From: a virus
Length of the DNA: 64,000 nt
Strand: one strand, 5' to 3'
IMG/VR virus record: IMGVR_UViG_3300040856_003829
Location: 32,161 to 96,160 of that record
The notes under the pieces were generated by a model. It did no database searches. It saw only the letters and a program-made list of their open reading frames with translations, and had not been told where the DNA came from. Both the position numbers and the translations under genes were made by a program. Shown here in pieces: positions 39,038 through 64,000 of the stretch; the stretch's first letter is position 1; each line of letters starts with the position of its first letter.

Positions 39038-39850
39038 TTAAGTGTTTTCAGGTTCATATGTAATTTTATTATCTTCCTTAAAAAATTGTTGTTTTTTAGC
39101 GGTATCAATCCAAAAACTAGCTTCATCCGATGTGATTACATTCTCACCAAACTTGTAATTCCAAAAAATAGACCCTTCTCTCATATTCACATGTTTGTAA
39201 CCTATTCTAGGAATAGTCATAAATTTTACAGAATTATATGTCATTCTTAGTAAGAATTCATAAACAAATGAAAGTTTTAAACTTTGTTTGAATCCACCAA
39301 AAGAATCTATTATTTTTTTCTTAAATACTAATCCACTAGATTGGAAATTTTGGTAGTTTAATAAGACTTCATTAGTCAATATACCTATTTCAGTGTTCAT
39401 ATTAGCTGCGAAAGTTGCTTCATTCGTAAATCCTGCGAACGATTGTTTTTCATCTACATCAACAACTAATGGTAAAAACCCATCAAAATCAGGGTATGAC
39501 TCGAAATATCTTTTTACACTTTTAAACCATATTTTGGAGTATTCATCATCAAACTCTAAAATTGATACAAGATCATTTTTGGTTGATTTGATACCTAAGT
39601 TGACTTGAGATTGAAAGTCCGAATCTCCTTCATTCAAAACTCTATTTACTGTCAATCCACTAAAATCAAAGTCATCTAAATAATTGATTAAACTTTCTTC
39701 ATCAGTGTGAACAATAATCAATTCATCTACTGGTTCTTCCTGATGTAAAACAGATTGTACTGACTTACTAAAAAATGTTTCAAAATCTTTATGTTTTGTT
39801 GATTCGATGGGTAAAACCACAGAAATCAAAAAATTATCTTCTTTTTTCAT
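39038..39850 (-). CDS. Glycosyltransferase family 2-like (GT-A)
   Basis: ISVVLPI...SVLHQ...NLGI......VSILEFDD. Confidence 0.8.
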   Translation of the reverse strand: MKKEDNFLISVVLPIESTKHKDFETFFSKSVQSVLHQEEPVDELIIVHTDEESLINYLDDFDFSGLTVNRVLNEGDSDFQSQVNLGIKSTKNDLVSILEFDDEYSKIWFKSVKRYFESYPDFDGFLPLVVDVDEKQSFAGFTNEATFAANMNTEIGILTNEVLLNYQNFQSSGLVFKKKIIDSFGGFKQSLKLSFVYEFLLRMTYNSVKFMTIPRIGYKHVNMREGSIFWNYKFGENVITSDEASFWIDTAKKQQFFKEDNKITYEPENT

Positions 39851-39851
39851 A

Positions 39852-40916
39852 TTATTCTACTTCTTCTAATTCGTTTATATTTATTTGATTCTCAAATGAT
39901 TTTAAACGGGAATCACAATAGGAACTAATTAACTGGACAACATTATAATCAAATGAATTTTTATCTGAATATTTTTCCGAGGTTTCTTTCCCTGCATTAT
40001 AAAGATCTTCAGATATATTATCTTCTAACCAGTTTTGAATAAAGTCTGCTATTATGTCTACAGTTTGTAATTTATCAAAATACCAAATTCCATTATTATC
40101 GTTCATCCAGTCTGGTTTCATATTTGGCACTTTACCAATAACAGGTGTACCACATTTCATAGACTCTAGTGGGAAGGTTCCAAATGATGATGAATCATCG
40201 ATCCATACAGATACAAAAGAATCTTGTAAGTATTCAGAAAATTTTTCCATAGAAATTCCACGCATATCTCTAAAAGTGACCCAACGATACTGCGGATACC
40301 TTATGTAAAAAGTTTTGATTATAATCATAGTATCCCTTTGGTCTCTAGTGTGTATAGAAATGATCGGTTTACAAGGGAATTTTTTTTCAGTGAATACTTC
40401 TGAAATTGTTGGTTCTAAAACGTCAACACTAACATTTCTCATCAAATCCTTAACAAATTCTTTTTGTTTTTCTGTCGTAGTTAAACACTTGTAAAAACCA
40501 TAGTCAGTCCATTCAGTTCCTGGTTTGAGGGTTTCAAGAATTGCATCATAAGATTGTGAAAGTACGATTTTACCACAAGGTAATTTTGACACTTGTTCGA
40601 TAACATGACCGAAAACCTCTGGGATAAAAATAAAATCCTCCGGACTTACCTCTAACTTTTGTGATTCTAAACTCAAATGTTCTAATTCAGTATAATCGGT
40701 CCCTAACCAATCACCAACACCTTTATAGTCATCTTTTTCGTGTAAAATAACCGGTTGATAACCCGAATTATTCAAAGACATTGCAAATTCATAAATGTAT
40801 CTGACAGATCCTTTAGCATATCCTTTACTGTCTAACACAAAGAAGTAAAATTTATTTTTTTTATCTCTTAAATTAGAAATACTTTTTTTTATTTTTTCTA
40901 ACTTTATATCTTCCAT
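39852..40916 (-). CDS. Glycosyltransferase (GT-B, GT4-like)
   Basis: SSFGTFPLESMKCGTPVIG. Confidence 0.8.
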   Translation of the reverse strand: MEDIKLEKIKKSISNLRDKKNKFYFFVLDSKGYAKGSVRYIYEFAMSLNNSGYQPVILHEKDDYKGVGDWLGTDYTELEHLSLESQKLEVSPEDFIFIPEVFGHVIEQVSKLPCGKIVLSQSYDAILETLKPGTEWTDYGFYKCLTTTEKQKEFVKDLMRNVSVDVLEPTISEVFTEKKFPCKPIISIHTRDQRDTMIIIKTFYIRYPQYRWVTFRDMRGISMEKFSEYLQDSFVSVWIDDSSSFGTFPLESMKCGTPVIGKVPNMKPDWMNDNNGIWYFDKLQTVDIIADFIQNWLEDNISEDLYNAGKETSEKYSDKNSFDYNVVQLISSYCDSRLKSFENQININELEEVE

Positions 40917-40922
40917 TTCAGT

Positions 40923-41903
40923 TTATTTTTTTAATTTATTCCTCCAATAATCTAAAAGATCATTCATTGTTTGTTTCAATTCAATCTTAGGTTCCCATCC
41001 AGTCATTTCAACTAATTCTTTCGAATCACCAATTTGTACTTGGATATCGATTGGTCTATAGTAAGGTTCGTAAATTTTCTGTTCAACCTCATCATAGTCG
41101 AATTTGGAACATTCGATAAGTAAATCTGTATAGTGTTGCATTTTATTTACTTCACTACCACATACGTTGAAAACTTTTCCTTTAGTTTCTGGATTTATCA
41201 TTAACAAATAATATGCGTTTACACAATCTCTTACATCTATTACAACTCTTTCTGTCTCGAGATTACCAATTTTCAAAACTTTTTCTTGTAACCCAAGTTC
41301 CATTGCCGCAATTTGATATGCATCGGAACTTATGCTGAAAATTTTACCCCTTCTTGGACCTGTATGACTAAAAGCTCTTGTTACAAAACCATCTAAGAAA
41401 CCATTACTAGCTCTCTCTTGAACATATAAATCCATAGCAGCCTTCGATGAACCATAAGGATTACTAGGTTTCAAAGGTGTGTCAATCGACAAAGTCCCAA
41501 CATCTTTACATTCGTCACCATACACTTCACTGGTAGAACAGAACATGAATCTAGTTTTACTATTTTCCAAAGAAGTTATTAAGTTCATAGTTGCAGATAC
41601 ATTTTCTTCCCATGTTAAAATTGGATCTTTGAAGCTTGTTGGTGGATGAGATTGTGCGGCTAGATGAAACACTCCATCAAACTCTTCTCGATCAATCAAT
41701 TTTTTTACACCGTAAAAATGTTTCAAATCTAGATAATGAAAAGTTATTTTATCCAATTCTTCTGGAGTAAGAATATCCAACAAATCTGTTTCTCGACCAT
41801 TAGCAGTTCTTACTACTCCATGAACTTCATGTCCTTTTTCTAACAATAGTTTCGCAAGATTTGGACCAGCAAATCCTGTTATTCCAGTAACTAAGTATTT
41901 CAT
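40923..41903 (-). CDS. GDP-sugar SDR, Rmd-like (GDP-4-keto-6-deoxymannose reductase) or a second Gmd
   Basis: TGITGFAG, HLAAQS, STSEVYG, YGSSK, RAFSHTGPR. Confidence 0.75.
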   Translation of the reverse strand: MKYLVTGITGFAGPNLAKLLLEKGHEVHGVVRTANGRETDLLDILTPEELDKITFHYLDLKHFYGVKKLIDREEFDGVFHLAAQSHPPTSFKDPILTWEENVSATMNLITSLENSKTRFMFCSTSEVYGDECKDVGTLSIDTPLKPSNPYGSSKAAMDLYVQERASNGFLDGFVTRAFSHTGPRRGKIFSISSDAYQIAAMELGLQEKVLKIGNLETERVVIDVRDCVNAYYLLMINPETKGKVFNVCGSEVNKMQHYTDLLIECSKFDYDEVEQKIYEPYYRPIDIQVQIGDSKELVEMTGWEPKIELKQTMNDLLDYWRNKLKK

Positions 41904-42169
41904 ATTTTTTTCAAAATTTTATTTAATAATAATGTATTGAAGGCGAATTTAAAGGGAAGACTTAAATTTTTACTAGAGTGAATTCCTAAGTTTTCATCTA
42001 TTTCCTCTCTTTCCGTCAATAAGACTTCGATCATTAATTTTACGAAGTCATACTTAACAACATCTGTCTGTTTTTCTACATGACCCTCTTCATTACTTGT
42101 TGCAATACCAACAAGAGAATCGATTTCTTTTAAATCGATATAATAATTTTCACCTAAAATCGAAATCAT
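41900..42169 (-). CDS. Hypothetical protein
   Basis: 89 aa; FKFAFNTLL. Confidence 0.65.
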   Translation of the reverse strand: MISILGENYYIDLKEIDSLVGIATSNEEGHVEKQTDVVKYDFVKLMIEVLLTEREEIDENLGIHSSKNLSLPFKFAFNTLLLNKILKKI

Positions 42170-42767
42170 TTTCTTTAAGTTTTAATTGTTTATATAGTTT
42201 TTCAAATTCTTCAAGAGAATTTATTGAAATATCTGTTTCAATACTTTTATTATATGTTGATTCGAATTTTACCAACTGAATATTTTCAGGTGAATTAATT
42301 AATAATTCCGGATTTGCGGTGACGATAATATCACACTCATCCCAGAGACTATCGATGGTGATTTTTGAGAAAAATTTAATTTTCTCAACTAGACAACCAT
42401 ATTTTGATAAGAAAAATAGAGATGCTGGCTTAGATTTTCCGATCTCATCTGATATAATTAATATTTCATTTTCATCACGTAGATCTTCATAAATTTTATT
42501 CAATTGATTGAAAGTTGTCATTTCAGAACTAGGTGAATTACCAAAAATTTGCATAGTGAAATCTTCATAAAAAAAAGAAAATAGTTCTTGATCGTCTTTG
42601 AATTTGAAGTGTGACTTTAAATCATTGAGATTAGTGACAGGAAGATTTAATCCATATTCGAATTCATCACCTTCATACTCATCAATGTAAAATTTTTGAT
42701 AAATCTGTTCTGCCTTCGCGAATGTATCTCTTAAGACATGATTTATATCGAAAGCTAACTTTTTCAT
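42150..42767 (-). CDS. HAD-fold / 5'-nucleotidase-like protein, degenerate
   Basis: AFDINHVLRD (DxN in place of DxD), C-terminal ...YNK. Confidence 0.55.
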   Translation of the reverse strand: MKKLAFDINHVLRDTFAKAEQIYQKFYIDEYEGDEFEYGLNLPVTNLNDLKSHFKFKDDQELFSFFYEDFTMQIFGNSPSSEMTTFNQLNKIYEDLRDENEILIISDEIGKSKPASLFFLSKYGCLVEKIKFFSKITIDSLWDECDIIVTANPELLINSPENIQLVKFESTYNKSIETDISINSLEEFEKLYKQLKLKENDFDFR

Positions 42768-43447
42768 TCGTATTTATCTAAAATTTGTGTGATCAAAGGA
42801 TTTCTAATGATATTACTTTTATCAAATTTGTAAATCCCTATATTTTCTATGTTATCGAACCTGTTTATGGCATCATAAAGACCTGATTGTGTTTTATCTC
42901 TAAATCTATCTGTTTGTTCAATATCACCAGATATGAAAAATTTTGAATTAAATCCAATTCTAGTCAGTAATAATTTCATTTGACTTTTTGTTGTGTTTTG
43001 TGCTTCTTCAAAAACTAGTATGGCATTATCTATATTCATACCTCTCATATATGCCAATGCAAAGACTTCGATAAATTCGAATTCCTTAAGTTTTTCCCTC
43101 TTTTCTTTTCCAATTATTTTATTTAGTAAGTAATATGAAGGAAATATATATGGATCTAATTTTTCTTCCAAATTTCCAGGTAATGACCCTAATTTTTCTT
43201 CAGCTTCAACTGCAGGTCTTACGATTATAATTTTTTCATAATCATTTTCTGGATCTAATAATAAATCGACTGCGGCTTTCATTGAAATGTAGGATTTACC
43301 TACTCCCGCGGGTCCTGAACATATTACAATTTCTTTTTCTTTGAGGATATCGTAATATTCTTTTTGTGATTTACTTAAAAATTTTTGTTTCGGTTGACGT
43401 CCGACAATTGATTTTATTTCTTGTTTTTTTTTACTTATATTCGTCAT
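42764..43447 (-). CDS. phoH: PhoH-like ATPase
   Basis: GPAGVGKS, RPAVEAEEKLGSLPG, LAYMRG, EEAQN, LTRIG, GDIEQTD. Confidence 0.95.
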   Translation of the reverse strand: MTNISKKKQEIKSIVGRQPKQKFLSKSQKEYYDILKEKEIVICSGPAGVGKSYISMKAAVDLLLDPENDYEKIIIVRPAVEAEEKLGSLPGNLEEKLDPYIFPSYYLLNKIIGKEKREKLKEFEFIEVFALAYMRGMNIDNAILVFEEAQNTTKSQMKLLLTRIGFNSKFFISGDIEQTDRFRDKTQSGLYDAINRFDNIENIGIYKFDKSNIIRNPLITQILDKYE

Positions 43448-43448
43448 A

Positions 43449-44435
43449 TTATAATTTTTCTTGCCAGTAATCTATCATTTCATCTAACATAGATTCAAAT
43501 GTATATTTAGGTTCCCAACCTGTTTTTTGTTTGAGTTTAGAACAATCACCTTTCAAATCTTCTAACTCTTCAGGTCTGAAATATTTCTCATCAATAATTA
43601 AATGTTTGTCAATATCCAAATCTAGTTTTTTGAAAACATATTCCACTAAATCTCTAACAGAATGAGAAATTCCAGTTGAACAAACAAAATCATCTGGGTT
43701 GTTTTGTTGTAGTATTAACCACATGGCTTCCACATAATCTTTAGCGTGTCCCCAATCTCTTGTGGCTTCCATATTACCTAAAGACAATGTTTTGGATAAT
43801 CCTTTTTTTATTTTGACCGCAGCTTTTACCACTTTATTAGTTACAAAATTAGTCCCTCGTCTAGGTGACTCGTGATTAAATAATATACCATTAGAAACAA
43901 ACATCTGATAAGAATTCCTATAATTTCTACTTATGTTATATGCAAAAACTTTAGAACAACCATAAGGAGAAACTGGATTCATTGGTGTTGTCTCACGTTG
44001 ATATCCATCATCATCAATGTTATTTCCAAACATTTCTGAAGATGACGCTTGATATACCTTAATATTAGGATTTACTAATTTTACAGCTTCTAATAGGTTC
44101 AGAGCACCTAAACCTGTTACATTTGCAGTGTAAATTGGTTGATCGAAGGAAATTCGAACGTGTGATTGTGCCGCCAAATTATAAATCTCATCTGGATTAC
44201 ATTTTTGTATGATCCTTATTAATGATGATAAGTCTGTCATGTCAACATATTCTAAATTAGAACTAATTGCATGATATACATTATCCAGTCGATTAGTTTG
44301 GTTTTCCGCCACTGAGTTTCTTTTCACAGTACCCCATACTTCATATCCTTTTTCTATCAAAAATTCTGCAAGATATGAACCATCTTGGCCATTAATACCT
44401 GTAATTAATGCGACTTTATTTTCTTGATTTTTCAT
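43449..44435 (-). CDS. gmd: GDP-mannose 4,6-dehydratase
   Basis: ITGINGQDGSYLAE, LAAQSHV, SSSEMFG, SPYGCSK, NHESPRRG, RDWGHA. Confidence 0.95.
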   Translation of the reverse strand: MKNQENKVALITGINGQDGSYLAEFLIEKGYEVWGTVKRNSVAENQTNRLDNVYHAISSNLEYVDMTDLSSLIRIIQKCNPDEIYNLAAQSHVRISFDQPIYTANVTGLGALNLLEAVKLVNPNIKVYQASSSEMFGNNIDDDGYQRETTPMNPVSPYGCSKVFAYNISRNYRNSYQMFVSNGILFNHESPRRGTNFVTNKVVKAAVKIKKGLSKTLSLGNMEATRDWGHAKDYVEAMWLILQQNNPDDFVCSTGISHSVRDLVEYVFKKLDLDIDKHLIIDEKYFRPEELEDLKGDCSKLKQKTGWEPKYTFESMLDEMIDYWQEKL

Positions 44436-45312
44436 AATTTTCTAAAAACCATTTTATTGTTTTTTTTATTCCAACTTCAATTGGTGTAAATTCAAATTCA
44501 GGTAAATATTCTTTAATCTTTGAATTGTCTGATGGTTTTCTAAACTGACCATCAGGTTTTGACTTGTCGAATAATACTTCCCCTTTAAAATTAAACTCTT
44601 GTACTAATAAATCAACTAAATCTCTAATTGAAATTTCTTGTGAAGTCGATAAAATAATTGGTTCGGGATCATTGTAATTTTTTAAAACCCATTCAGTCAA
44701 ATGACTAACATCTTCAGAATAAATAAATTCTCTTAAAGGTTTACCTGATCCCCATACCTCAAATGGTCTATTATCAATTTGTGAAATATACATTTTATGT
44801 ATCAGCATCGGAACTACATGACCGTGAGTTAAAGAAAAATTGTCATTTGGTCCATAAATATTTGTTGGAACAACTGATTTATAATTTAATCCATACTGTT
44901 CTTTATAAGATCTAATCTGTATATCCGCCATCCTTTTAGCATATGCGTAAGCATCATTCGAAAAATGAGGAGGACCCAAATGAATGTATTCTTCCTTAAG
45001 TGGATATTTGGTGTTATCAGGAAAAATACAGGTGGATAAAAAAGTAACTAGATTTTTAACACCATGATTTCTTGCTTGTTCAATCACATTAGTGTTTATC
45101 ATGATATTATCATAAAAATATTCACCTTTGAAATTCATATTAGATCCTAATCCACCAACTTTTGCGGCCGTATGTATGACTTCAGTAGGTTTATATTTTT
45201 TATACATTTTAATCACCTCATTGGTTTTAGTTAAATTATAATCCTTAGATGATATTTTTACGTCTCCATCAAGACATGAACCTACTAAACCATTTCCTGT
45301 TATTAACCTCAT
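44416..45312 (-). CDS. fcl: GDP-L-fucose synthase
   Basis: GLVGS, AAKVGGL, STCIFP, YAYAK, PTNIYGPNDNF, WGSGKPLREF, KPDG. Confidence 0.93.
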   Translation of the reverse strand: MRLITGNGLVGSCLDGDVKISSKDYNLTKTNEVIKMYKKYKPTEVIHTAAKVGGLGSNMNFKGEYFYDNIMINTNVIEQARNHGVKNLVTFLSTCIFPDNTKYPLKEEYIHLGPPHFSNDAYAYAKRMADIQIRSYKEQYGLNYKSVVPTNIYGPNDNFSLTHGHVVPMLIHKMYISQIDNRPFEVWGSGKPLREFIYSEDVSHLTEWVLKNYNDPEPIILSTSQEISIRDLVDLLVQEFNFKGEVLFDKSKPDGQFRKPSDNSKIKEYLPEFEFTPIEVGIKKTIKWFLENYEKSRK

Positions 45313-45315
45313 ACT

Positions 45316-46002
45316 TTAAATTACTTTCCATTTATCAGAAACACATACTCCCCAATCATCATCTCTACTTTTGTAATTTTTATGAAAAACTAAATTCTGA
45401 TTTGGAGTGGTTGTGTGTAAGTCTACTAAATGAAAGAATGATGAGTTAACACAATGAACTTCTTCTGCGTTATCTATTAGTTTGAGATAATCAAATATTG
45501 TATCGGCTTGTTCTACAAATATCCTTTTCAAATTATTACCAATTAAGTCATAATTTATTCCATCTAATCCCCCACTATGTTTATTATGTATTAATGCATA
45601 TTTTTCATCATTAGGATTTAATTTTTCATACTGATTATTCTCCTTTATAAAGTCTCTTTCAACATAAAAATCAGTCCACCTTTTTTGATGGTCAACATTC
45701 ATACTTTTATAAAAATTTTCATCCCACATTGGTCCACAACAAAAAGTATTATGGTGACCTATTATGGTTAATTTTTGACTTAAATTATTTTTGGAAATGT
45801 AGTCGTTAACCCCGAAATCATCATTTACCGCAATCAATTCTAAATTAGAAAGATCTCTGAACATAAACTGGACACTAGGTAAATTATGATGTTTAACAAA
45901 CAAATATGTTTTATCGTAATCTCTAATTAAATTCCTTATTAAACCATTACAAATTAAATGATCCCCTAATCCTAAATGTTGGTGTATGTAGTTTATATTC
46001 AT
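45316..46002 (-). CDS. Putative glycosyltransferase (GT-B; fucosyl- or heptosyltransferase-like)
   Basis: HLGLGDHLIC at the N-terminus and EVHCVNSSFFHL; directly upstream of fcl and gmd. Confidence 0.5.
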   Translation of the reverse strand: MNINYIHQHLGLGDHLICNGLIRNLIRDYDKTYLFVKHHNLPSVQFMFRDLSNLELIAVNDDFGVNDYISKNNLSQKLTIIGHHNTFCCGPMWDENFYKSMNVDHQKRWTDFYVERDFIKENNQYEKLNPNDEKYALIHNKHSGGLDGINYDLIGNNLKRIFVEQADTIFDYLKLIDNAEEVHCVNSSFFHLVDLHTTTPNQNLVFHKNYKSRDDDWGVCVSDKWKVI

Positions 46003-46742
46003 TTTTTTACTGTTGCAACTCCTTTTATCTGAACAACTTCTCTAGCTTTTTTATTTGCAAAAATAATTGAATTTGGAATATCTTTAGTATTTAAATAAAA
46101 ATAAATAAATGAACTTAGAAATGTATCACCAGCACCACTTACATCAAAAGTATTAATAGGTTCTGTTTCATAAATTACATTATCGTATTGACATCCTTTA
46201 CCTCCTAAAGTGACAATCATTTTTTTATCTAAAAATTCTAAGTTTCCATGTAACTCTAAATTTTTGTTATATTCAGTTTCGTTGATCTTGATAAAATCAA
46301 TATTTTCACAATACTTACCTAATAATTTTTTTGTGTCTAAAAATACTGGGCACTTCACATTTTCACTTATGTATTGTATATCCTTTTCATTTAAAAAACC
46401 TTTATTGTAATCAGAAATGACAACCGCATCCCACTGAAGATTTAATTTTTCATATAGAATTGATCTATCTATCCGATCACATTTATCGTTTTCATCTACT
46501 CTTATTATCAGTTGATTACTTGACTTATCAACATATCTAATTTTGTGTATTGTACTCTGATTTGTTACCAGATCGACTTCAAGACCGAAAGAACTCAAAT
46601 TCTCTTTTACATTTGCAGCCATACCTGGATTTGTTGTATAATCTGAAGGTAAGAAAACTGGTACAGGCGCTTCAGGACATAACCGGTTACATTTCCCATA
46701 AACAAATTTATCGATACATGAGTCTCCAATAACTAAAATCAT
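45999..46742 (-). CDS. PfkB-family heptose-7-phosphate kinase (HldA / RfaE domain I-like)
   Basis: RLCPEAPVPV, GMAANV, ISDYNKG, DVSGAGDTF. Confidence 0.85.
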   Translation of the reverse strand: MILVIGDSCIDKFVYGKCNRLCPEAPVPVFLPSDYTTNPGMAANVKENLSSFGLEVDLVTNQSTIHKIRYVDKSSNQLIIRVDENDKCDRIDRSILYEKLNLQWDAVVISDYNKGFLNEKDIQYISENVKCPVFLDTKKLLGKYCENIDFIKINETEYNKNLELHGNLEFLDKKMIVTLGGKGCQYDNVIYETEPINTFDVSGAGDTFLSSFIYFYLNTKDIPNSIIFANKKAREVVQIKGVATVKK

Positions 46743-47404: not shown

Positions 47405-47409
47405 ATATA

Positions 47410-49498: not shown

Positions 49499-49500
49499 TT

Positions 49501-51985: not shown

Positions 51986-52035
51986 TCATATACTTTTTTA
52001 AAGTATAGTAAAAAAAAAGTGTTAAGTAAAAAGTC

Positions 52036-52578: not shown

Positions 52579-52582
52579 GATT

Positions 52583-53292: not shown

Positions 53293-53293
53293 T

Positions 53294-54353: not shown

Positions 54354-54368
54354 TTAGATACTTTCTTA

Positions 54369-54394
54369 ATAAATACTTCTTTTAAACTATTTAT
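54369..54394. promoter_or_regulatory. Divergent pair of TATTTAT late-promoter motifs
   Basis: GTATTTAT (minus, 54369-54376) and CTATTTAT (plus, 54387-54394) at the strand-switch point. Confidence 0.6.
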
Positions 54395-54406
54395 CAAAAA
54401 AAAGAG

Positions 54407-56398: not shown

Positions 56399-56401
56399 AA
56401 A

Positions 56402-56890
56402 ATGGCAAATTTAAAAATTTCTGAATTACCTGAAACACTTTCTGCGGATACGACAGATGTATTTGCAATAGTAAATAATAGTCAAACTAAAAAAATAACA
56501 TTCGAAAACTTATATGAAGATATTCCAACATTAAATTCTGAAAGACAATCTAATACTTTTTTAGTACCTACTGTTGTAACTGGTAGTTCAGGTAGTAACC
56601 ATTATATAAGTGGAATGAGTGAAACCGCACTTATACGTTTAGCATTTACTGGCGGTAATGGTACTGCAAATTTATTTTTACCAGACGCAACAACTAACAC
56701 AAATAGATGTATTAGAATTATTGGTGATGGCACTATAGATAATCAACATACTTTCGATGTTACACCTTCATTTGGTCAGAATTTAGATGGTTCTACAGGT
56801 TCATACAATATAGGCACAAATAAATCTTACGATGGTGTTATGGTTTGGACTGACGGTATTGAATGGTTCAGAATACAAAGTAAAGGATAA
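56402..56890 (+). CDS. Tail fibre/appendage-type virion protein
   Basis: MANLKISELP...FAIV....TKKITF.NL N-terminal module typical of phage fibre proteins. Confidence 0.6.
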   Translation: MANLKISELPETLSADTTDVFAIVNNSQTKKITFENLYEDIPTLNSERQSNTFLVPTVVTGSSGSNHYISGMSETALIRLAFTGGNGTANLFLPDATTNTNRCIRIIGDGTIDNQHTFDVTPSFGQNLDGSTGSYNIGTNKSYDGVMVWTDGIEWFRIQSKG

Positions 56891-56910
56891 AAATATAGAT
56901 ACATTTCAAA

Positions 56911-59900
56911 GTGGAATTTTACATAAAAAAAGGAAGTACATTACCAATTCTAAGTTATGAAGTTACCGAAGACGGCATCAATAATTTAGATGCATTATTA
57001 AATGAACAAAATTATGTATGTAAATTTTCTCTTTTAAAAAAAGATGGTACTTTCGTAATTTTTCAAAAGCCAGCCCAGGTTGAGATGAGAAAAGACGGAA
57101 TTAAGGACGGTCTTTTTTTAACTTATAAGTTTAATAAAAAAGAAACTTCAGTTAGTGGTGATTATTATGGACAATTTCATTTGTATAGTATCGATGGTGA
57201 AAGGTTTTTCAAAAGAGAGGGTAAAATACCTATATTTATTTTAGACTCAATCTCTGATAATGATTTATGTTGTAAAGGAGATAAAACTAATTACGACACT
57301 ATTATAGTCTCAGAAACACCAAGAAGAACTCCAACAGGTACACCTTCAATAACATCAACACCAGCACAAACAGTAACACCTTCAGTCACTAACACACCAA
57401 ATATGACTTATTCATTTGGTGTTATTACTAGAGTTTGTGATGATGTAAGTTTTAATGTTATAGCACCTCAACTATATTTAATTAACGGTAATTATATGTC
57501 ATTTTATGGTGACTGTTATTTAATCTCAGATGTAGGTGTAATTGCAACCTATGATTTTATTATTACAGCATCAGAAATAGATCTTTATGATGAAGAATCA
57601 AACTGTACATCATTATATCCGTGTATTACACCCACACCATCACCAACAAATACTCAAACACCTTCAATAACTGCTTCAAATACACCAACACCTTCAATAA
57701 CTGCAACTCATACTCTAACACCTTCAATAACTGCAACTAATACTCAAACACCGACCAACACCACCACCACAACTTTAACCGCAACACAAACATCGACACC
57801 ATCTACTACCACAACTTTAACTGCAACACAAACACAAACGATTACGCAAACACCAACAAATACTCAAACACCTACATTTACTTTAACTCATTCACAGACC
57901 GCAACAAATACACCAACAAATACTCAAACGCCTTCAATAACCGCAACAAATACACCAACACCAACTCCATCATATACTGTAGGGGGAACCCCACTTCCAA
58001 CACCTACATTAACTTTAACCAATACGGAAACTCCAACATTTACACCTACTAATTCTGAAACTCCGACCCATACACCAACAAACACACTAACACACACACC
58101 AACATATACCCCTACAAATACAGTAACTAATTCTGAAACACCAACGTTTACACCAACTGGGACAATTAATGAAACCCCAACACTAACACCAACACAATCA
58201 GAAACACCGACAAATACTAGTACAAATACACCCACCAACACTCAAACTTCAACGTACACACCTAGCCCAACAATCACATCTACAGTAACACCAACACAAT
58301 CATCAACACCACCAGATACTGACTACGTATATGCATTCGTCTTAGCACATGATGATATTTTAGATGCTACTTTTAATGACAATAGTACTGAAAGACTTAA
58401 CGACAATACTGAAATCGATGTGTTTAGAATTTCTAGAGATTCTAGAACTTATATACCAACAAATGATTCAAAAAATTCTGCAGAAATAGATCTAGATTTA
58501 AGTAATTTTAATAGAATAAAAGATTCAAGTTTTAACCGTATAGTAATTGAATTACCAAAACTTGGTGATGAGTATGGCACATATCAAAAGGTATCTATTG
58601 AGCCCGTAGATATATTACCAGACAATATTCCATTTTCTATTGGTAATAACAACAGTATTATTAATAATTTCTACACCAAAAAGTATATACAATCTTATAA
58701 CATATATAACTCATCAAGTGAAAGACTAGGTATATTTGTCGCGTTCGGTGATAAACTTTTTGCCCAATATAGAGATGGTGATCAATCAATAGAGTTGATA
58801 AAAAGACCAGATATTAATTATGATGATAAATATATATTACAAAACACACTTGACTTAAAAAATCCTGGGGAGTTTACTTGCGGGGCACCGGAATCGACAG
58901 AAGAAAATATTGTAAATAGTATTCAAGAATCTGCAAGATCCTCAACACCAGAAAACGGATATTGTATAAGAACATGTATTGATGTTGATTACGCAACATA
59001 TAATTATTTTAATGGTAATGAAGAAGAAATTCTTATTTGGGTATCATCAATTTGTGTGGGTGCAATTTCAATATATCTAGACACATGGGATGGATTAGTA
59101 AACTGGCAGATTTCCTTAATTCACCTTTGGGATACGCAGGATCCTATCATGATAGAACCTGGACCTGTAGAAGGTAATACTTTCTTAAATAGAACCAGAA
59201 ATGCGTGGAATGATATCGATACATTATCTCAATTATATCTAGAATATGATTTACATATTGTTTATACCTTTACTATTTTAAGTCAAAATTTACAAGGACC
59301 ATTTGGACCTAACTCTTCAGGGTTACTAGGTTCTGCATATCCTGATATGGTTTGTAAAGATAATGTACCATTTATAACCGCAAATGTTGGTATATCATAC
59401 CAGTTATGGCCTGAGGGTGTAAGTGAACAAAACACTCTTACTTTAGCACATGAATGGGGACATTTAATCGGATTTAATCATACCCAGAGTTCTCAATTCG
59501 GTAGAGGATGGGTAGAGTTTAAAGATCTTACGGGTGCACCAGACCCAATAGAAAGTTCTAGTTACGGTTGTTACCCTCCAGGTACTTGTGATAGTACGTG
59601 TGGTGATATTATGAGTTACTGTTTTACTGGTAGGTTACTAGAATTCCACCCAGTCCTAGTTGAGTTTTTGCCGTTCCATATGGATTTTATAAATGCAAAG
59701 TGTTTATTGACCGACACTATTTGTACCGTACCACCCACAACTGAACAACTTAATTCACTGTCCTATTATATGGGTGACCTTCAATTTACCTTCCATATTA
59801 ACTATTACTCTACTAGCCTTAACAAATTAACCAAATACCTCGATTGGCCAGGGTTTTTATTAGGTACACAGAGAGGATCACAATTAATACAAATCCCAGT

Positions 59901-60603
59901 AAATGATGATGGTACGTTTGGTACTTTTAATATTCCAGGTTCAACATTAAGTTACGGTGAATTTACAGTTATTATAGTAACAAAATCCATGGGATATAAT
60001 GATTCAACTATTATGGGTAATATTGAAATAAATTATGACAATGGATCTACTTACTATTCATACGAAACTTTGGATGTATTTTACGGATATCATATAGATT
60101 ATAATGGATTTAGTATTGACAATACTAATAATTATAGGGTTCTTTTCTCCCCTTCTATGATTTTTAATAATAGTAATCCAACAATAACATATAAAATAAG
60201 GGGTGGTAATATGATTGAGTATGACCAATCAGTAGGATCGGATAATTCCCCCAACTATTTTGGTATATGTCTTTACAATGAAGAAAATGTTGTTGCAATT
60301 ACGGGATCAAATGTTGAAGATACCACCAGACCTAGTTTTAATCGTAGTCTTAATAAATCTTATATAATATATTTACCCGGAGATACTTATGTTGGTAATC
60401 TCTTTGACTATCCTGTTTTAGTTCCAGACGTACCCGAAAACTGGTTTTGTGTAAATTTGTGGGAAGGATCGATTTCCATCGAAACTTTAACCGTTTGGAA
60501 TAGTGACGTATTGTACACTTGGTACGCTGATAATTGTAATGATAGTTTATGTGGATTAGATCCTACAATAGGTTTACCTCCTTTAACACCGATAAACATT
60601 TAA
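56911..60603 (+). CDS. Mucin-like virion appendage protein with a metzincin (M12B/reprolysin-like) protease domain
   Basis: [11 protein letters not shown]-terminal (BppU-like) anchor, ~230 aa Thr/Pro tract, [19 protein letters not shown] Met-turn; GTG start. Confidence 0.8.
57625..58320 (+). repeat. Degenerate coding repeats encoding a Thr/Pro/Ser-rich linker
   Basis: Units such as TPSITA.NT and [10 protein letters not shown]. Confidence 0.8.
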
Positions 60604-60614
60604 AAAAACGATGT

Positions 60615-63600
60615 ATGGATTTTTATATTAGAAAAAATAGTACATTACCAGTTTTAAAGATGGAGATCCCTGATCTACCATCTTTTGATCTTAATAGTGC
60701 TTCTTCTTTTTTTAATCTAAAATTTAAATCCCAAGACAAATACAAAATATTTAATAAACCCGCAAATATTTTTTTTTCTGATGGATTGTATTATGTTGAA
60801 TTTAAATTCAATAAGAAGGAAACAAATTTTTCCGGGTCATTTGAAGGTGAATTTATTCTCAAACAAGGGGAAAACAAAATAAAAATTCCTACGGATGATG
60901 ACATCACTGTTGAGATCACAGATTCGTTTAGTAATGTGGATGCCTGTTGTAAACCACAAGAAGTTACGATAAGCGTAGTTCCAGGTATAACCCCTAAAAG
61001 AATAATTGTCACTGATACACCAAAAAGAACACCAACAAAAACTCCAAAAATAACTAATACACCAACAAATACAAAAACAAGTACAAATACACCAACATTC
61101 ACTCCAACTAATACCTTGACTCCAACTCATACTTCGACTAACACAAATACCCCAACAAATACCCCAACATTTAGACCTACTAAAACACCTACTAACACAA
61201 TAACTTCAAACGAAACCCCTACTTTAACTCCGACTAATACAAATACACCCACATTTACCCCAACTAACACTATTACCAAGACAGTGACAAATACAATAAC
61301 TAATACAATCACTAGTACTGAAACACCGACATTTACACCAACTAATACTACTACAAATACTGAAACACCCACATTTACACCAACTAATACTGTCACAAAT
61401 ACTGAGACTCCAACATTTACCCCAACTAATACTATTACAAATACCGTAACTAATACTGTTACGAGAACTGAAACACCAACATTTACACCAACTAATACAG
61501 TAACAAGTACAGAAACGCCAACATATACTCCAACTAATACGATCACAAATACAGTTACAAGAACTGAAACTCCAACATTTACTTCAACAAATACTTCTAC
61601 AAATACTGAAACTCCTACATTCACTCCAACTAATACTGCCACAAATACTGAAACCCCTACATTCACTCCAACTAATACAGTAACTAATACTGAAACACCA
61701 ACATTTACCCCAACTAATACGATCACAAATACTGTAACAAGTACTGAAACGCCAACATATACACCGACTAATACGATTACAAGTACAGAAACACCAACAT
61801 TCACTCCAACTAATACAATAACGAAAACTGAAACACCTACGTTTACTCCAACAAAGACTATCACACAGACCCCTGGTGGATCCCCAGCAGCCACTCCAAC
61901 ATTTACCCCAACTAATACTATTACAAGTACTGAGACTCCAACATTTACTCCGACTAATACAATTACAAGTACTGAGACTCCAACATTTACCCCAACTAAT
62001 ACTATTACCAATACTGTTACCAGTACAGAAACTCCAACATTTACTCCAACTAATACTATTACCAATACTGAAACACCAACATTTACTCCAACTAATACTC
62101 CAACTAATACTATTACAAATACTGAAACTCCAACATATACTCCGACTAATACGATTACAAGTACTGAGACACCTACATTTACACCAACAAATACTATTAC
62201 CAGTACCGAAACACCAACATTCACTCCAACTAATACTATTACGAGAACTGAAACTCCAACATTCACACCAACTAATACGATCACAAATAGTGTTACCAGT
62301 ACAGAAACACCAACATATACACCGACTAATACTATTACCAATACTGAAACACCAACATTTACCCCAACAAATACTGTCACCAGTACTGAAACACCAACAT
62401 TTACTCCAACTAATACTATTACACAAACACCTGGTGGATCCCCAGCCGTTACTCCAACATTTACTCCGACTAATACGATTACAAGTACTGAGACTCCAAC
62501 ATTTACTCCAACAAATACGATCACAAATACTGTTACTAGTACTGAAACACCTACATTTACCCCAACTAATACTATTACCAGTACAGAAACGCCAACATAT
62601 ACACCAACGTTTACTCCGACTAATACTGTTACCAATACTGTTACCAGCACTGAAACGCCAACATATACTCCAACAAATACCCCAACTAATACTATAACTA
62701 AAACAGTCACTAGTACTGAAACACCTACATTTACTCCAACTAACACCTTGACACCATCCCCCACAATGCCTGACGGAGACTTTATATTACAAGAAAATAG
62801 TTTTGCCATTTTACAAGAAGACAACGATTTATTAATTATCGATTATCCTCCTACCCCAACCCCAACCCCTACTTTGTCTGAAACCCCAACTTTAACTCCA
62901 ACAAATACTATAACGAAAACTGAAACACCTACGTTTACTCCAACTAATACAATTACTAATACTGTTACGAATACTGAAACTCCGACATTTACTCCGACTA
63001 ATACTATTACCAATACAATTACCAGTACGGAAACTCCAACATTTACCCCAACAAATACGGTTACTAGTTCTGAAACTCCAACATTTACGCCAACTAATAC
63101 GATCACAAATACTAAAACTCCTACATATACACCGACCAATACTGTAACCAGTACTGAAACTCCAACATTTACACCAACTAACACTGTCACAAACACTGAA
63201 ACACCCACATTTACACCAACTAATACAGTGACAAGTACTGAAACACCTACGTTTACTCCTACTAATACAATTACAAATACTATTACCAATACTGAAACAC
63301 CAACATTCACTCCAACTAATACTATTACCAATACTGTTACCAGCACTGAAACACCAACATTTACTCCAACTAACACAATAACTAATACTGAAACGCCTAC
63401 GTTTACTCCAACTAACACAATAACTAATACTGTTACCAATACTGAAACTCCAACATTTACACCAACTAATACTATTACCAGAACTGAGACACCTACGTTT
63501 ACACCAACTAACACAATAACTAACACAATAACTAATACAGAAACACCAACATTTACCCCAACTAATACAATAACGAATTCTGAAACGCCAACATTTACAC

Positions 63601-64000
63601 CAACAAATACGATCACAAACACTGTTACGAATACTGAAACTCCGACATTTACCCCAACTAATACTGTTACCAGTACAGAAACGCCAACATTCACTCCAAC
63701 TAATACAATAACGAATTCTGAAACGCCAACGTTTACTCCAACTAACACAATAACTAATACAGAAACACCAACATTCACTCCAACAAATACGATCACAAAT
63801 ACTGTTACCAGTACAGAAACTCCTACGTTTACTCCAACTAACACTGTTACGAGAACTGAAACACCAACATTCACTCCAACAAATACGATCACTAGTACTG
63901 TAACCAGTACAGAAACTCCTACGTTTACTCCAACTAATACTATTACCAGTACAGAAACGCCAACATATACACCAACGTTTACTCCGACTAATACTGTTAC
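60615..64000 (+). CDS. Giant mucin-like Thr/Pro repeat virion protein (>1128 aa, 3'-truncated by the window; missing from the ORF track)
   Basis: ATG 60615 [18 protein letters not shown]...CCK...[12 protein letters not shown], paralogous to the 56911 protein; same frame confirmed at 62766 and at the window end. Confidence 0.88.
61010..64000 (+). repeat. Tandem 42-nt / 54-nt coding repeats, ETPT(F/Y)TPTNT(I/V)T[NT(V/I)T](N/S/R/K)T
   Basis: Dozens of units varying mainly at third codon positions; interrupted by QTPGGSPA twice and by a DFILQE...ILQE block. Confidence 0.92.

What the first reader, a model, noticed from the sequence alone, without database searches (positions are those of the whole stretch)
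39038..64000. Candidate phage-encoded glycosylation system for mucin-like virion fibres
Seen in sequence: a ~13 kb cluster with about 7 glycosyltransferases (GT2-like, two GT4-like, GT31-like, two other GT-A, one GLGD-type GT-B), Gmd, Fcl, an Rmd-like enzyme and a heptose kinase. It lies next to two paralogous genes with long Thr/Pro tracts. Neither the transferases nor the Thr/Pro proteins have signal peptides or membrane anchors. Established: Thr/Pro tracts are classic O-glycan acceptors, chloroviruses and mimiviruses glycosylate their own virions, and the host Bacteroidota O-glycosylation pathway is periplasmic. Inference: the phage builds a cytoplasmic glycan coat on bottle-brush fibres, for adhesion, shielding or host-surface mimicry.
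Basis: partly seen in the sequence, partly recalled or inferred. Interest (0 to 1): 0.85.

Follow-up and report, generated by a model that had tools for sequence, protein, structure and literature searches.

The report
Phage sugar-enzyme cluster beside mucin-like fibres
A fragment of a roughly 300-kb uncultured phage of Bacteroidota encodes two fibre proteins with very long threonine/proline stalks next to soluble sugar-making and sugar-transferring enzymes, so the phage probably sugar-coats its own fibres, but no sugar has been measured and other targets are not excluded.

Summary
A 13-kb minus-strand array (39038-51985) encodes Gmd, an Fcl-like and an Rmd-like reductase, a PfkB kinase and six to seven glycosyltransferase candidates. 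Beside it lie two paralogous Thr/Pro proteins. None of these has a signal peptide or membrane segment.

New here:
- **Fibres:** both Thr/Pro proteins start with a 125-aa Ig-like domain whose best structural matches are phage baseplate proteins. Of 66 family representatives with a C-terminal extension, 50 carry a Thr/Pro tract. The genes sit in a hypervariable fibre slot.
- **Protease head:** Thr/Pro protein 1 ends in a metzincin-type zinc-protease domain.
- **Sister clade:** a GT60 gene, the family that starts mucin-type O-glycosylation in protists, follows the last Thr/Pro gene in 39 loci, with a hypervariable glycan-tailoring cassette behind it. Two window genes have homologues inside that cassette.
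- **Other targets:** the lineage encodes no lipid-carrier or flippase genes, and its thymidylate synthase is canonical.

Against: the window's own clade lacks GT60. The core transferases persist in relatives without Thr/Pro tracts. Several families are LPS-type, and the phage also encodes secreted T9SS cargo.

Verdict: fibre glycosylation is the best reading (about 0.45) and is unproven. The scan has reported similar GT60/Thr-Pro modules on other DNA.

The parts
39038..39850 (-). 270-aa GT2-family glycosyltransferase (GT-A). Core gene of the lineage, directly upstream of tail genes.
   Evidence: Pfam PF00535, 23.4 bits against cut-off 23.3. 76% identical in G001. 268-291-aa GT2 open frames recur 10-22 kb from the GT-B gene in all three clades; treating them as orthologues rests on size and position only.
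39852..40916 (-). 354-aa GT1/GT4-like glycosyltransferase (GT-B).
   Evidence: PF00534, 26.1 bits, just under cut-off 26.4. 78% identical in G001.
40923..41903 (-). Rmd-like short-chain dehydrogenase, a candidate GDP-4-keto-6-deoxymannose reductase giving GDP-6-deoxyhexose. Variable gene, with no orthologue in G001.
   Evidence: PF16363, 209 bits. TIGR01472, only 128 bits. No orthologue in G001.
41900..43447 (-). Non-sugar genes inside the array: 89-aa and 205-aa unknown proteins, and PhoH.
   Evidence: PhoH PF02562, 215 bits. No hits for the other two.
43449..44435 (-). Gmd, GDP-mannose 4,6-dehydratase.
   Evidence: PF16363, 407 bits. TIGR01472, 409 bits against cut-off 415. 76-77% identical in G001.
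44416..45312 (-). Fcl-like GDP-L-fucose synthase. Divergent, with a short N-terminus.
   Evidence: NF047922, 230 bits against cut-off 500. Epimerase, 147 bits.
45316..46002 (-). 228-aa 'GLGD' protein, unclassified. Variable cassette gene.
   Evidence: No Pfam or NCBIfam hit, even at E 5. Homologue (29% identity, E 6e-22) inside the cassette that follows the GT60 gene in L093.
45999..46742 (-). PfkB-family sugar kinase, closest to heptose-7-phosphate kinase (RfaE domain I).
   Evidence: PF00294, 56 bits. TIGR02198, 125 bits against cut-off 345.
46739..47404 (-). 221-aa member of a virus-only GT-A-like family.
   Evidence: The Atlas's nearest clusters are 97-100% viral (phages and giant viruses), with GT8/Nucleotid_trans neighbours. 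Homologue (34% identity, E 6e-39) inside the GT60-HtrL cassette of L086 and L065.
47410..48084 (-). 224-aa Fringe/GT31-like glycosyltransferase.
   Evidence: PF02434, 32.7 bits. PF01762, 23.5 bits.
48074..49498 (-). 474-aa Glyco_tranf_2_5 glycosyltransferase with a variable C-terminal half. Backbone gene of the window's clade.
   Evidence: PF13712, 96.5 bits. The N-terminal 220 aa are conserved in 17 loci at about 53% identity.
49501..50786 (-). dUTPase and PolB-type 3'-5' exonuclease (backbone genes, not sugar genes).
   Evidence: PF00692, 86 bits. PF10108, 37 bits.
50783..51985 (-). 400-aa GT-B glycosyltransferase. Core gene of the whole lineage.
   Evidence: PF13692, 23.6 bits, below cut-off. 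25-32% identical to glycosyltransferases of phi92-like and other large phages. Found in 21 of 23 related records, including those without Thr/Pro tracts.
54407..56398 (+). 663-aa conserved first gene of the fibre module. Possible LamG/ConA-like jellyroll.
   Evidence: Homologues in 38 loci. The Atlas feature and structure neighbours carry Laminin_G_3; this is only a lead, because the Atlas model has pLDDT 0.36. No Pfam or PHROG hit.
56402..56890 (+). 162-aa protein with a fibre-like N-terminal motif.
   Evidence: 96% identical in G001. Its N-terminus resembles, by eye, that of a 1000-aa fibre-slot protein in L052. No family hit.
56911..60603 (+). Thr/Pro protein 1, 1230 aa. Parts: Ig-like anchor (aa 1-125), short Thr/Pro linker, small domain, Thr/Pro stalk (about aa 240-520), metzincin-type zinc-peptidase domain ([11 protein letters not shown] at aa 847-857, then DIMSY), and a C-terminal domain of about 300 aa.
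   Evidence: Reprolysin_5, 27.1 bits against cut-off 27.0. Both motifs are invariant in four orthologues. PF13688 is precomputed on the orthologues. Anchor model has pLDDT 86.8.
60615..64000 (+). Thr/Pro protein 2. Same anchor, then at least 988 aa of 14- and 18-residue repeats (such as [10 protein letters not shown], 41 copies). Truncated by the contig end.
   Evidence: The window ends at the contig end.
32725..39034 (-). Context: five co-directional genes directly downstream of the sugar array, probably tail or baseplate genes. They include a 638-aa protein with a hydrophobic segment (tape-measure-like) and a 520-aa protein with a weak hub-domain hit.
   Evidence: Phage_base_V, 21.3 bits, below cut-off. 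Hydropathy 2.43 at aa 499 of the 638-aa protein. All five are conserved in G001.

Best explanation
The window is the right-hand 64 kb of a 96-kb fragment of a jumbo phage of about 300 kb that infects Bacteroidota. It resembles the recently described 'moraphages'.

**Fibre module (54407-64000).** The two paralogues attach to the virion, probably at the baseplate, through a 125-aa Ig-like N-terminal domain. Each projects a long, extended Thr/Pro stalk. One stalk carries a metzincin-type zinc-protease head.

**Sugar array (39038-51985).** Its soluble enzymes make GDP-L-fucose (Gmd plus Fcl), a second GDP-6-deoxyhexose (Rmd-like enzyme) and perhaps a phosphorylated heptose. Six or seven soluble glycosyltransferases then build oligosaccharides in the host cytoplasm.

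**Most likely acceptor.** The Thr residues of the stalks are modified before or during virion assembly, giving a stiff, protease-resistant 'bottle-brush'. Its glycan differs between close relatives.

**Shown:** gene content, the architecture of the fibre proteins, synteny, and the GT60 cassette in the sister clade.

**Inferred:** that the proteins are in the virion, that the stalks are the acceptor, every sugar identity beyond the GDP-mannose branch, and the biological role.
For: 1. Enzyme identities. None has a membrane segment or signal peptide.
2. The anchor domain is always N-terminal in 115 cluster representatives. Of 66 with a C-terminal extension of at least 40 aa, 50 have a 40-aa window with at least 50% Thr+Pro. 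At least 523 IMG/VR loci encode the domain.
3. The anchor model (pLDDT 86.8) best matches phage NF5 baseplate chains (Foldseek E 6e-5; Z 8.3 over 120 residues) and the phage 80alpha baseplate. It also matches many predicted 'BppU N-terminal domain' and tail proteins.
4. The same slot, between the 663-aa gene and the DNA polymerase gene, holds large non-Thr/Pro proteins of 560-1480 aa in a third clade; I read these as fibres by size and N-termini only. This marks it as a hypervariable fibre slot.
5. In the sister clade, a PF11397 (GT60) gene (E 1.6e-72) was found in 39 loci. It starts about 80 bp after the last Thr/Pro ORF in the six loci where I compared coordinates.
6. Behind GT60 comes a cassette with 50 protein clusters: FkbM methyltransferases, GT25, GT10, GT2, GT34, DegT and a sulfotransferase. 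It ends in an HtrL-like gene.
7. Of 51 loci with enough upstream sequence, 29 of the 30 that have the cassette also have Thr/Pro ORFs. None of the 13 loci with neither tracts nor cassette breaks the pattern.
8. GT60 enzymes start mucin-type O-glycosylation on Thr in protists (PMC8724618, PMC9472816).
9. The window's 221-aa and 228-aa proteins have homologues inside that cassette.
10. The nearest relative, G001 (75-85% identity), keeps both fibres and the backbone. It swaps the Fcl/GLGD/kinase/Rmd genes for a DegT-like aminotransferase, another SDR and a GT11 fucosyltransferase. That is the pattern expected of an exposed glycan under diversifying selection.
11. No WbaP-type or WecA-type initiating transferase and no Wzx flippase was found in this fragment or in two relatives rated 100% complete by CheckV.
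12. The lineage's thymidylate-synthase homologue keeps L143, D169 and N177, so it is a canonical ThyA. The criteria are from PMC13326640.
13. The array runs straight into probable tail genes.
Against: - No sugar has been measured on any protein.
- The window's clade lacks GT60, both in the held 96 kb and in five relatives up to 88% complete. A positive control for that search worked. No recognisable polypeptide-initiating transferase is therefore identified here.
- At least the 400-aa GT-B and the 270-aa GT2 persist in eight related records with no TPTxTPT tract. At least these core enzymes need another acceptor. Those records are only 18-48% complete, however.
- GT25, HtrL, the RfaE-like kinase and GT2 are families typical of LPS core and O-antigen synthesis.
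- The phage encodes T9SS cargo proteins and a second amino-sugar cluster. Host-envelope remodelling is therefore plausible.
- The anchor's structural match to baseplate proteins is tied with ordinary Ig V domains (Z 8.3 against 8.0), and it has no Pfam BppU_N hit.
- The fibre module lies among DNA-metabolism genes, not in the main structural block.
- Thr/Pro linkers can work without glycans.
Confidence: 0.45

Rival explanations
1. Host-surface remodelling. During infection the enzymes alter the host's LPS, capsule or T9SS-cargo anchor glycan, using the host's own lipid carrier, flippase and ligase. Possible purposes are blocking superinfection, stopping progeny from sticking to debris, or anchoring phage-encoded T9SS cargo. 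On this reading the Thr/Pro stalks are plain linkers.
For: - GT25, HtrL_YibB, an RfaE-like kinase, GT2 and the Gmd/Fcl/Rmd genes are typical O-antigen and LPS-core content.
- At least the 400-aa GT-B and the 270-aa GT2 occur in relatives without Thr/Pro tracts.
- Gene swapping between close relatives also fits serotype-like variation.
- The 'LPS gene' reading of cyanophage clusters is a precedent (recalled from memory).
Against: - No initiating phosphoglycosyl transferase, flippase or any membrane protein lies in the array or in complete relatives.
- The 221-aa transferase belongs to a family seen almost only in viruses.
- In the sister clade the glycan cassette is nested inside the Thr/Pro fibre module and is led by GT60, a family whose characterised members are polypeptide-modifying.
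- A large, presumably lytic phage has little time to rebuild a surface polymer (inference).
Confidence: 0.25
2. The phage glycosylates itself, but the acceptor is not the Thr/Pro stalk. The core transferases modify another conserved phage protein, such as the capsid, the tail, the 125-aa anchor protein or the 663-aa protein. This resembles mycobacteriophage capsid and tail-tube glycosylation. The Thr/Pro stalks would be unmodified or only incidentally modified.
For: - At least two core transferases (the 400-aa GT-B and the 270-aa GT2) are conserved across all three clades, including the one without Thr/Pro tracts.
- The moraphage paper reports four glycosyltransferase orthogroups among its core groups, without assigning a function (PMC12619734).
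- The GT2 and GT1 genes directly precede probable tail genes.
Against: - No other protein in the 96 kb has a Ser/Thr/Pro-rich tag like the mycobacteriophage acceptors.
- The variable part of the array shares genes with the cassette that sits beside the Thr/Pro genes.
- This reading does not explain why GT60 travels with Thr/Pro genes.
Confidence: 0.15
3. DNA hypermodification. The transferases glycosylate modified bases in phage DNA to evade restriction, as in T-even phages or phages with arabinosyl-5-hydroxycytosine.
For: - Two core transferases flank the dUTPase and exonuclease genes.
- Phages are known to put diverse glycans on DNA (bioRxiv 10.1101/2023.12.21.572611; PMC13326640).
- This fragment is only about 32% of the genome.
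Against: - The only thymidylate-synthase homologue in relatives 88-100% complete scores as a true ThyA. It keeps L143, D169 and N177, so it is not a 5hm- or 5ho-pyrimidine synthase.
- No Tet/JBP hit was found, although that search had no positive control.
- GDP-fucose and GDP-rhamnose pathways and seven different transferases are not what I recall of known DNA glycosylation systems (my own knowledge, not checked here).
Confidence: 0.05

Closest known systems
Mycobacteriophage virion glycosylation (Che8, Corndog, Myrna; Freeman et al. 2023, Cell Host Microbe). The paper is not held here; I cite it through PMC12619734.
   Same: Phage-encoded soluble glycosyltransferases would modify the phage's own structural proteins in the cytoplasm. 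The glycan genes vary between relatives.
   Different: - There the acceptors are short C-terminal extensions of the capsid and tail-tube subunits. Here they would be stalks of hundreds to about a thousand residues on baseplate-type fibres.
- The host here is Gram-negative Bacteroidota.
- This phage brings its own GDP-sugar pathway.
- Nothing has been measured here.
Protist mucin-type O-glycosylation started by GT60 polypeptide alpha-GlcNAc-transferases (T. cruzi TcOGNT, Dictyostelium; PMC8724618, PMC9472816).
   Same: Dense Thr/Pro acceptor tracts. In the sister clade of this phage lineage, a GT60-family gene sits directly after the Thr/Pro genes and is followed by elongating and tailoring enzymes.
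   Different: - The window's own clade has no GT60.
- The phage enzymes have no membrane anchor and would act in the bacterial cytoplasm, not the Golgi.
- No phage GT60 has been characterised biochemically.
Chlorovirus PBCV-1 and mimivirus self-glycosylation (recalled from memory).
   Same: The virus encodes its own Gmd and GDP-fucose/rhamnose enzymes plus cytoplasmic transferases. It glycosylates capsid or fibril proteins independently of host secretory pathways. The 221-aa transferase family is shared between phages and giant viruses.
   Different: Those are eukaryotic viruses with different acceptor proteins. PBCV-1 glycans are N-linked on Vp54, and mimivirus fibrils differ again. No evolutionary link is shown beyond one shared transferase family.
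Serine-rich-repeat adhesin glycosylation by GtfA/GtfB in Gram-positive bacteria (recalled from memory).
   Same: Cytoplasmic O-glycosylation of very long Ser/Thr repeat stalks that project a functional head domain. Several accessory transferases extend the glycan.
   Different: No GtfA/B (DUF1975) homologue and no accessory Sec system here. The repeats are Thr/Pro, not Ser-rich. The product would be assembled onto a virion rather than exported.
'LPS' gene clusters of marine cyanophages such as P-SSM2 (recalled from memory), and the four glycosyltransferase orthogroups among the moraphage core groups (PMC12619734).
   Same: Large aquatic phages carry many transferases and nucleotide-sugar genes of unassigned function. 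This phage matches the moraphage description: Bacteroidota host, about 300 kb, and DnaK. Hsp20 was only noted by the scan (e1-5999803).
   Different: Those reports do not link the transferases to Thr/Pro proteins. Here the link rests on synteny across many loci.

Membership tests
Phage virion glycosylation, mycobacteriophage type | Phage-encoded glycosyltransferases | tested here: met
   Six to seven candidates. The Fringe-like gene and GT2_5 are clearly above the Pfam cut-off, the 270-aa GT2 is at it, and two are just below.
Phage virion glycosylation, mycobacteriophage type | Glycans detected on virion proteins | not testable with these tools
   Needs mass spectrometry or lectin staining of particles. 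The phage is uncultured.
Phage virion glycosylation, mycobacteriophage type | Acceptor is a C-terminal extension of the capsid or tail-tube subunit | tested here: not met
   In the 96 kb, only the two fibre proteins have long Thr/Pro/Ser-rich tracts.
GT60-initiated mucin-type O-glycosylation | A GT60 (PF11397) polypeptide GlcNAc-transferase gene | tested here: not met
   Absent from the held 96 kb and from five records of the window's clade, up to 88% complete. Present in the sister clade, which served as the positive control. The window's genome is only about 32% complete.
GT60-initiated mucin-type O-glycosylation | Dense Thr/Pro acceptor tracts | tested here: met
   47% Thr and 14% Pro over at least 988 aa in protein 2. 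38% Thr and 13% Pro over 280 aa in protein 1.
Lipid-linked surface polysaccharide pathway (O-antigen or capsule) | Initiating phosphoglycosyl transferase (WbaP or WecA type) and Wzx-type flippase | tested here: not met
   PF02397, PF00953 and PF01943 were not found in this record or in two complete and two partial relatives. Controls were positive. The host could supply them.
Lipid-linked surface polysaccharide pathway (O-antigen or capsule) | Nucleotide-sugar synthesis genes clustered with several transferases | tested here: met
   Gmd, Fcl-like, Rmd-like, a kinase and six to seven transferases.
DNA base glycosylation (T-even type or 5-hydroxycytosine type) | Thymidylate-synthase homologue with altered specificity residues (N177D, D169N or L143 change) | tested here: not met
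   No TS gene in the held fragment. Relatives' homologues keep L143, D169 and N177 and pass the ThyA equivalog cut-off. Criteria are from PMC13326640.
BppU N-terminal (baseplate anchor) domain | Match to the Pfam BppU_N model | tested here: not met
   No Pfam hit for the N-terminal domain at E 0.01 or below.
BppU N-terminal (baseplate anchor) domain | Ig-like fold matching solved baseplate anchor domains | tested here: inconclusive
   Top matches are 9m8o_P (Z 8.3, 120 aligned residues) and 6v8i_AK (Z 8.3), but Ig V domains follow at Z 8.0. Foldseek gives E 6e-5. Many BppU_N-named predicted viral structures also match.
Metzincin zinc peptidase (M12B, reprolysin-like) | HExxHxxGxxH zinc site and a downstream Met-turn | tested here: met
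   [11 protein letters not shown] at aa 847-857, followed by DIMSY. Both are invariant in four orthologues.
Metzincin zinc peptidase (M12B, reprolysin-like) | Family profile match and catalytic-domain fold | tested here: inconclusive
   Reprolysin_5, 27.1 bits against cut-off 27.0. The MMP-9 alignment has E 0.65. The AlphaFold model failed, with pLDDT 26.9.
Moraphages (Bacteroidota jumbo phages, PMC12619734) | About 200-307 kb, Bacteroidota host, DnaK/DnaJ/Hsp20, core glycosyltransferase orthogroups | tested here: inconclusive
   CheckV completeness of 32% for 96 kb implies about 300 kb. A DnaK-like ORF was recognised by eye from its N-terminus, and T9SS domains are present. At least two core transferases are present in 19-21 of 23 related records. 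No marker-gene phylogeny against the published genomes was possible.

The most novel reading that the evidence does not exclude
The phage virion carries baseplate fibres that are true mucin-like glycoproteins. Stalks of hundreds to more than a thousand residues are densely O-glycosylated in the bacterial cytoplasm, by a virus-encoded pathway that includes fucose and 6-deoxyhexose. One stalk presents an active metzincin protease that cuts the host's proteinaceous surface coat, such as T9SS-anchored adhesins or an S-layer, during adsorption. The glycan protects the stalk from this protease. This would be a new kind of virion-borne depolymerase on a glycoprotein stalk, and the first mucin-type glycosylation system shown in a phage of Gram-negative bacteria.
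Probability: 0.2. Interest if true: 0.85.

Novelty: new variant of a known kind. Interest (0 to 1): 0.6.

Why it matters
Self-glycosylation of phage particles has been shown experimentally only in mycobacteriophages, as far as the held literature shows. The published description of this jumbo-phage lineage lists its core glycosyltransferases without a function.

If the Thr/Pro stalks are the acceptors, abundant aquatic phages of Bacteroidota build mucin-like glycoproteins in the bacterial cytoplasm. In one clade they would use a eukaryote-type GT60 initiator. In this clade they would use the phage's own GDP-fucose supply and an initiator still to be identified.

That would:
- give a testable explanation for many 'LPS-like' genes in marine and freshwater viromes;
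- affect how such phages stick to particles, mucus or hosts;
- provide soluble bacterial-cytoplasm enzymes for making O-glycoproteins.

The protease head on a fibre is a separate, testable idea about how phages breach protein-coated cell surfaces.

Tried and rejected
- **No near relative among deposited phages.** Megablast of the cluster and tblastn of the 663-aa protein and the anchor domain against deposited phages found nothing. TerL is under 30% identical to any isolate.
- **PHROGs.** No hits for the fibre-module proteins or the small ORFs.
- **Solved structures by sequence.** Nothing for the GT2_5, GT-B, 221-aa or GT60 proteins. The protease region gave only an E 0.65 alignment to MMP-9.
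- **Protease-domain model.** AlphaFold with five near-identical sequences failed (pLDDT 26.9), so no fold search was run on it. No more distant homologues of that region exist in the 5.8-billion-protein set.
- **The 'GLGD' protein.** It has no family hit, even at E 5, and is not related to the GT11 gene that occupies its place in G001. I did not accept it as a GT9 or GT-B enzyme.
- Neighbourhoods of the 115 anchor-domain representatives could not be read, so I used IMG/VR loci instead.
- **Promoters.** A TATTTAT-like motif lies upstream of many genes on both sides of the divergent junction and before structural genes. It does not separate early from late genes, so I dropped it.
- **Transferase counts.** GT2 counts per record show no clear difference between records with and without Thr/Pro tracts. 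The records differ in size and are related to each other, so no statistic is claimed.
- **Tet/JBP.** The search was negative but had no positive control.
- **Literature.** No paper was found on Thr/Pro phage fibres with transferases. Freeman 2023 is not held.

Full report
**What the DNA is**

The window is bases 32161-96160 of a single 96,160-bp IMG/VR virus record. CheckV rates the record 32% complete, which implies a genome of about 300 kb. The window encodes TerL, a portal protein and a major capsid protein.

The part of the record outside the window encodes a DnaK-like ORF (recognised by eye from its N-terminus). It also encodes two large secreted proteins with T9SS sorting domains (CHU_C and Por_Secre_tail) and a cluster with DegT, Gfo/Idh/MocA and formyltransferase genes.

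No deposited phage is close. Megablast and tblastn of several proteins find nothing, and TerL is under 30% identical to any isolate. Size, host phylum and chaperone genes fit the recently described 'moraphages', whose core orthogroups include four glycosyltransferase groups without an assigned function (PMC12619734). I could not test membership by phylogeny.

**Checking the observation**

The minus-strand array 39038-51985 contains these genes:
- Gmd (409 bits against an equivalog cut-off of 415);
- an Fcl-like enzyme (230 bits, cut-off 500);
- an Rmd-like SDR;
- a PfkB kinase, closest to the heptose-7-phosphate kinase domain (125 bits, cut-off 345);
- a GT2 (at cut-off);
- a GT1-type GT-B (just below cut-off);
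- a Fringe/GT31-like enzyme;
- a Glyco_tranf_2_5 enzyme (96.5 bits);
- a 400-aa GT-B with homologues annotated as glycosyltransferases in phi92-like phages;
- a 221-aa protein of a virus-only GT-A-like family.

The 228-aa 'GLGD' protein has no family hit at all. PhoH, dUTPase, an exonuclease and two small ORFs are interspersed.

The two Thr/Pro proteins are real paralogues. Protein 2 has at least 988 aa of 14- and 18-residue repeats with 47% Thr, and it runs off the contig end. The contig of the nearest relative also ends inside this gene, so the repeat breaks assemblies. None of these proteins has a signal peptide or membrane segment.

**What the Thr/Pro proteins are**

Both begin with a 125-aa domain. 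A full HMMER scan of 1.84 billion representatives found 115 proteins with this domain, always at the N-terminus, with lengths from about 100 to 1632 aa. Of the 66 with an extension of at least 40 aa, 50 have a 40-aa window of at least 50% Thr+Pro. At least 523 IMG/VR loci encode the domain.

An AlphaFold model of the domain (pLDDT 86.8) is an Ig-like sandwich. Its best matches are these:
- chains of the phage NF5 baseplate (Foldseek E 6e-5; Z 8.3 over 120 residues);
- the phage 80alpha baseplate (Z 8.3);
- many predicted viral proteins named BppU N-terminal domain or tail protein.

Ordinary Ig V domains score almost as well (Z 8.0), so this supports a virion anchor but does not prove it.

Across about 95 loci the genes occupy one slot: a conserved 663-aa protein, then variable large proteins, then an anchor-domain protein, then DNA polymerase. 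In a third clade the slot holds long proteins of 560-1480 aa without Thr/Pro tracts. I read these as fibres by size and N-termini only. I therefore read the slot as a hypervariable fibre module. The 663-aa protein may contain a LamG-like jellyroll, but that is only a lead.

Thr/Pro protein 1 ends in a domain with a complete metzincin signature, [11 protein letters not shown] followed by DIMSY. Both motifs are invariant in four orthologues. The Reprolysin_5 match sits at the cut-off. The structural model of this domain failed.

**Evidence linking sugars to the stalks**

The strongest evidence comes from relatives:
- In 39 loci of a sister clade there is a gene matching Pfam PF11397 (E 1.6e-72). 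It starts about 80 bp after the last Thr/Pro ORF in the six loci where I compared coordinates.
- PF11397 corresponds to CAZy GT60. Its characterised members are polypeptide alpha-GlcNAc-transferases that start mucin-type O-glycosylation on Thr (PMC8724618, PMC9472816).
- Behind GT60 lies a cassette ending in an HtrL-like gene. Over these loci it holds 50 different protein clusters: FkbM and other methyltransferases, GT25, GT10, GT2, GT34, DegT and a sulfotransferase.
- Among 51 loci with at least 6 kb upstream of the anchor gene, 29 have both Thr/Pro ORFs and the cassette, and 13 have neither. Eight have Thr/Pro ORFs without the cassette; these belong to the window's clade. One has the cassette without a Thr/Pro ORF, but its upstream part is not covered.

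These loci are related to each other, so the counts are not independent events.

Two window genes, the 221-aa and 228-aa proteins, have homologues inside that cassette (E 6e-39 and 6e-22). This ties the variable part of the window's array to the cassette beside the Thr/Pro genes.

The nearest relative, G001, shares the fibres and the backbone at 75-85% identity. It replaces the Fcl, GLGD, kinase and Rmd genes with a DegT-like aminotransferase, another SDR and a GT11 fucosyltransferase. The glycan therefore differs between close relatives while the stalks stay the same.

**Testing the rivals**

*Host-surface polysaccharide.* No WbaP-type or WecA-type initiating transferase and no Wzx flippase is found in this record, in two relatives rated 100% complete, or in two partial ones. 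Controls were positive. The host could supply these functions, and several families in the array are LPS-type. This rival stays at about 0.25.

*DNA glycosylation.* The held fragment has no thymidylate-synthase homologue. Relatives have one, and it passes the ThyA equivalog cut-off. It keeps L143, D169 and N177, the residues that change in 5hm- and 5ho-pyrimidine synthases (criteria from PMC13326640). This rival is at about 0.05.

*Another phage protein as acceptor.* The 400-aa GT-B (50% identical) and GT2 genes persist in records with no TPTxTPT tract. At least these core enzymes probably have another or an additional acceptor. Within the 96 kb, however, no other protein has a comparable tract.

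**What weakens the main reading for this window**

The window's clade has no GT60. It is absent from the held 96 kb and from five relatives up to 88% complete, and the search method was validated on three records that do have it. No initiating polypeptide transferase can be named here. Everything rests on gene content and synteny.

**Verdict**

The most likely mechanism is cytoplasmic O-glycosylation of the Thr/Pro stalks of baseplate-type fibres, using phage-made GDP-fucose and GDP-6-deoxyhexose (confidence about 0.45). One fibre carries a metzincin head.

It is a new variant of a known kind. The known kinds are phage virion glycosylation in mycobacteriophages, and self-glycosylation in chloroviruses and mimiviruses.

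Earlier reports of this scan describe GT60 beside Thr/Pro proteins in other uncultured phages. My sister-clade result agrees with them and was obtained independently from loci fetched here.

Noticed in passing
window 59449-59481 (aa 847-857 of the protein at 56911-60603): Thr/Pro protein 1 carries a complete metzincin zinc-peptidase signature, [11 protein letters not shown] followed by a DIMSY Met-turn. Both are invariant in four orthologues. A protease head on a phage fibre is unusual.
   Followed up: partly
window 64000 (contig end); G001 contig end (L012:16164-18783): This contig and that of the nearest relative both end inside the repeat of Thr/Pro protein 2. The repeat breaks short-read assemblies, and the C-terminal domain of protein 2 is unknown.
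   Followed up: partly
G012:C1:69405-72845 and G017:C1:2697-4997 (records behind L050 and L068); L043:1424-3676: In the clade without Thr/Pro tracts, the core 400-aa GT-B homologue lies in open frames of 750-1156 aa. Its matching pieces are separated by long insertions without stops, which may be inteins. The DNA polymerase genes there are also 300-650 aa longer.
   Followed up: no
window 56402-56890; L052:1221-4223: The N-terminus of the 162-aa protein (MANLKISELPE...TKKIT) resembles, by eye, the start of a 1000-aa fibre-slot protein of another clade (MANKKISAFNV...GETK). It may be a shared fibre-attachment motif.
   Followed up: no
L004:830-1699: A paralogue of the sister clade's second type of Thr/Pro protein has a weak papain-family (Peptidase_C1) match: E 0.002, 18.6 bits, below the cut-off. 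With the metzincin head, this hints that proteases on stalks may recur.
   Followed up: no
window 36016-37932: This 638-aa protein has a strongly hydrophobic segment (hydropathy 2.43 at aa 499). It lies between small tail-like genes and a protein with a weak baseplate-hub hit. It may be the tape-measure protein that the moraphage paper could not find.
   Followed up: no
genome 15362-19389 (L001), outside the window: A second sugar cluster holds DegT aminotransferase (243 bits), a Gfo/Idh/MocA oxidoreductase, a formyltransferase and two unassigned proteins. It lies next to a 1107-aa protein with a CHU_C T9SS sorting domain.
   Followed up: partly
window 54354-54406 and upstream of 2646, 3299, 11005, 22899, 26229, 27295, 31185: A TATTTAT-like motif lies 10-25 nt upstream of many start codons. 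It occurs on both sides of the 53-bp divergent junction between the sugar-array side and the fibre module. It may be a phage promoter element.
   Followed up: no
L098:917-1954 and L099:832-1926 (relatives G006 and G010): The lineage's thymidylate synthase is canonical at its specificity residues. It carries an insertion of roughly 35-55 residues between the PCH and QRSVD active-site motifs.
   Followed up: partly
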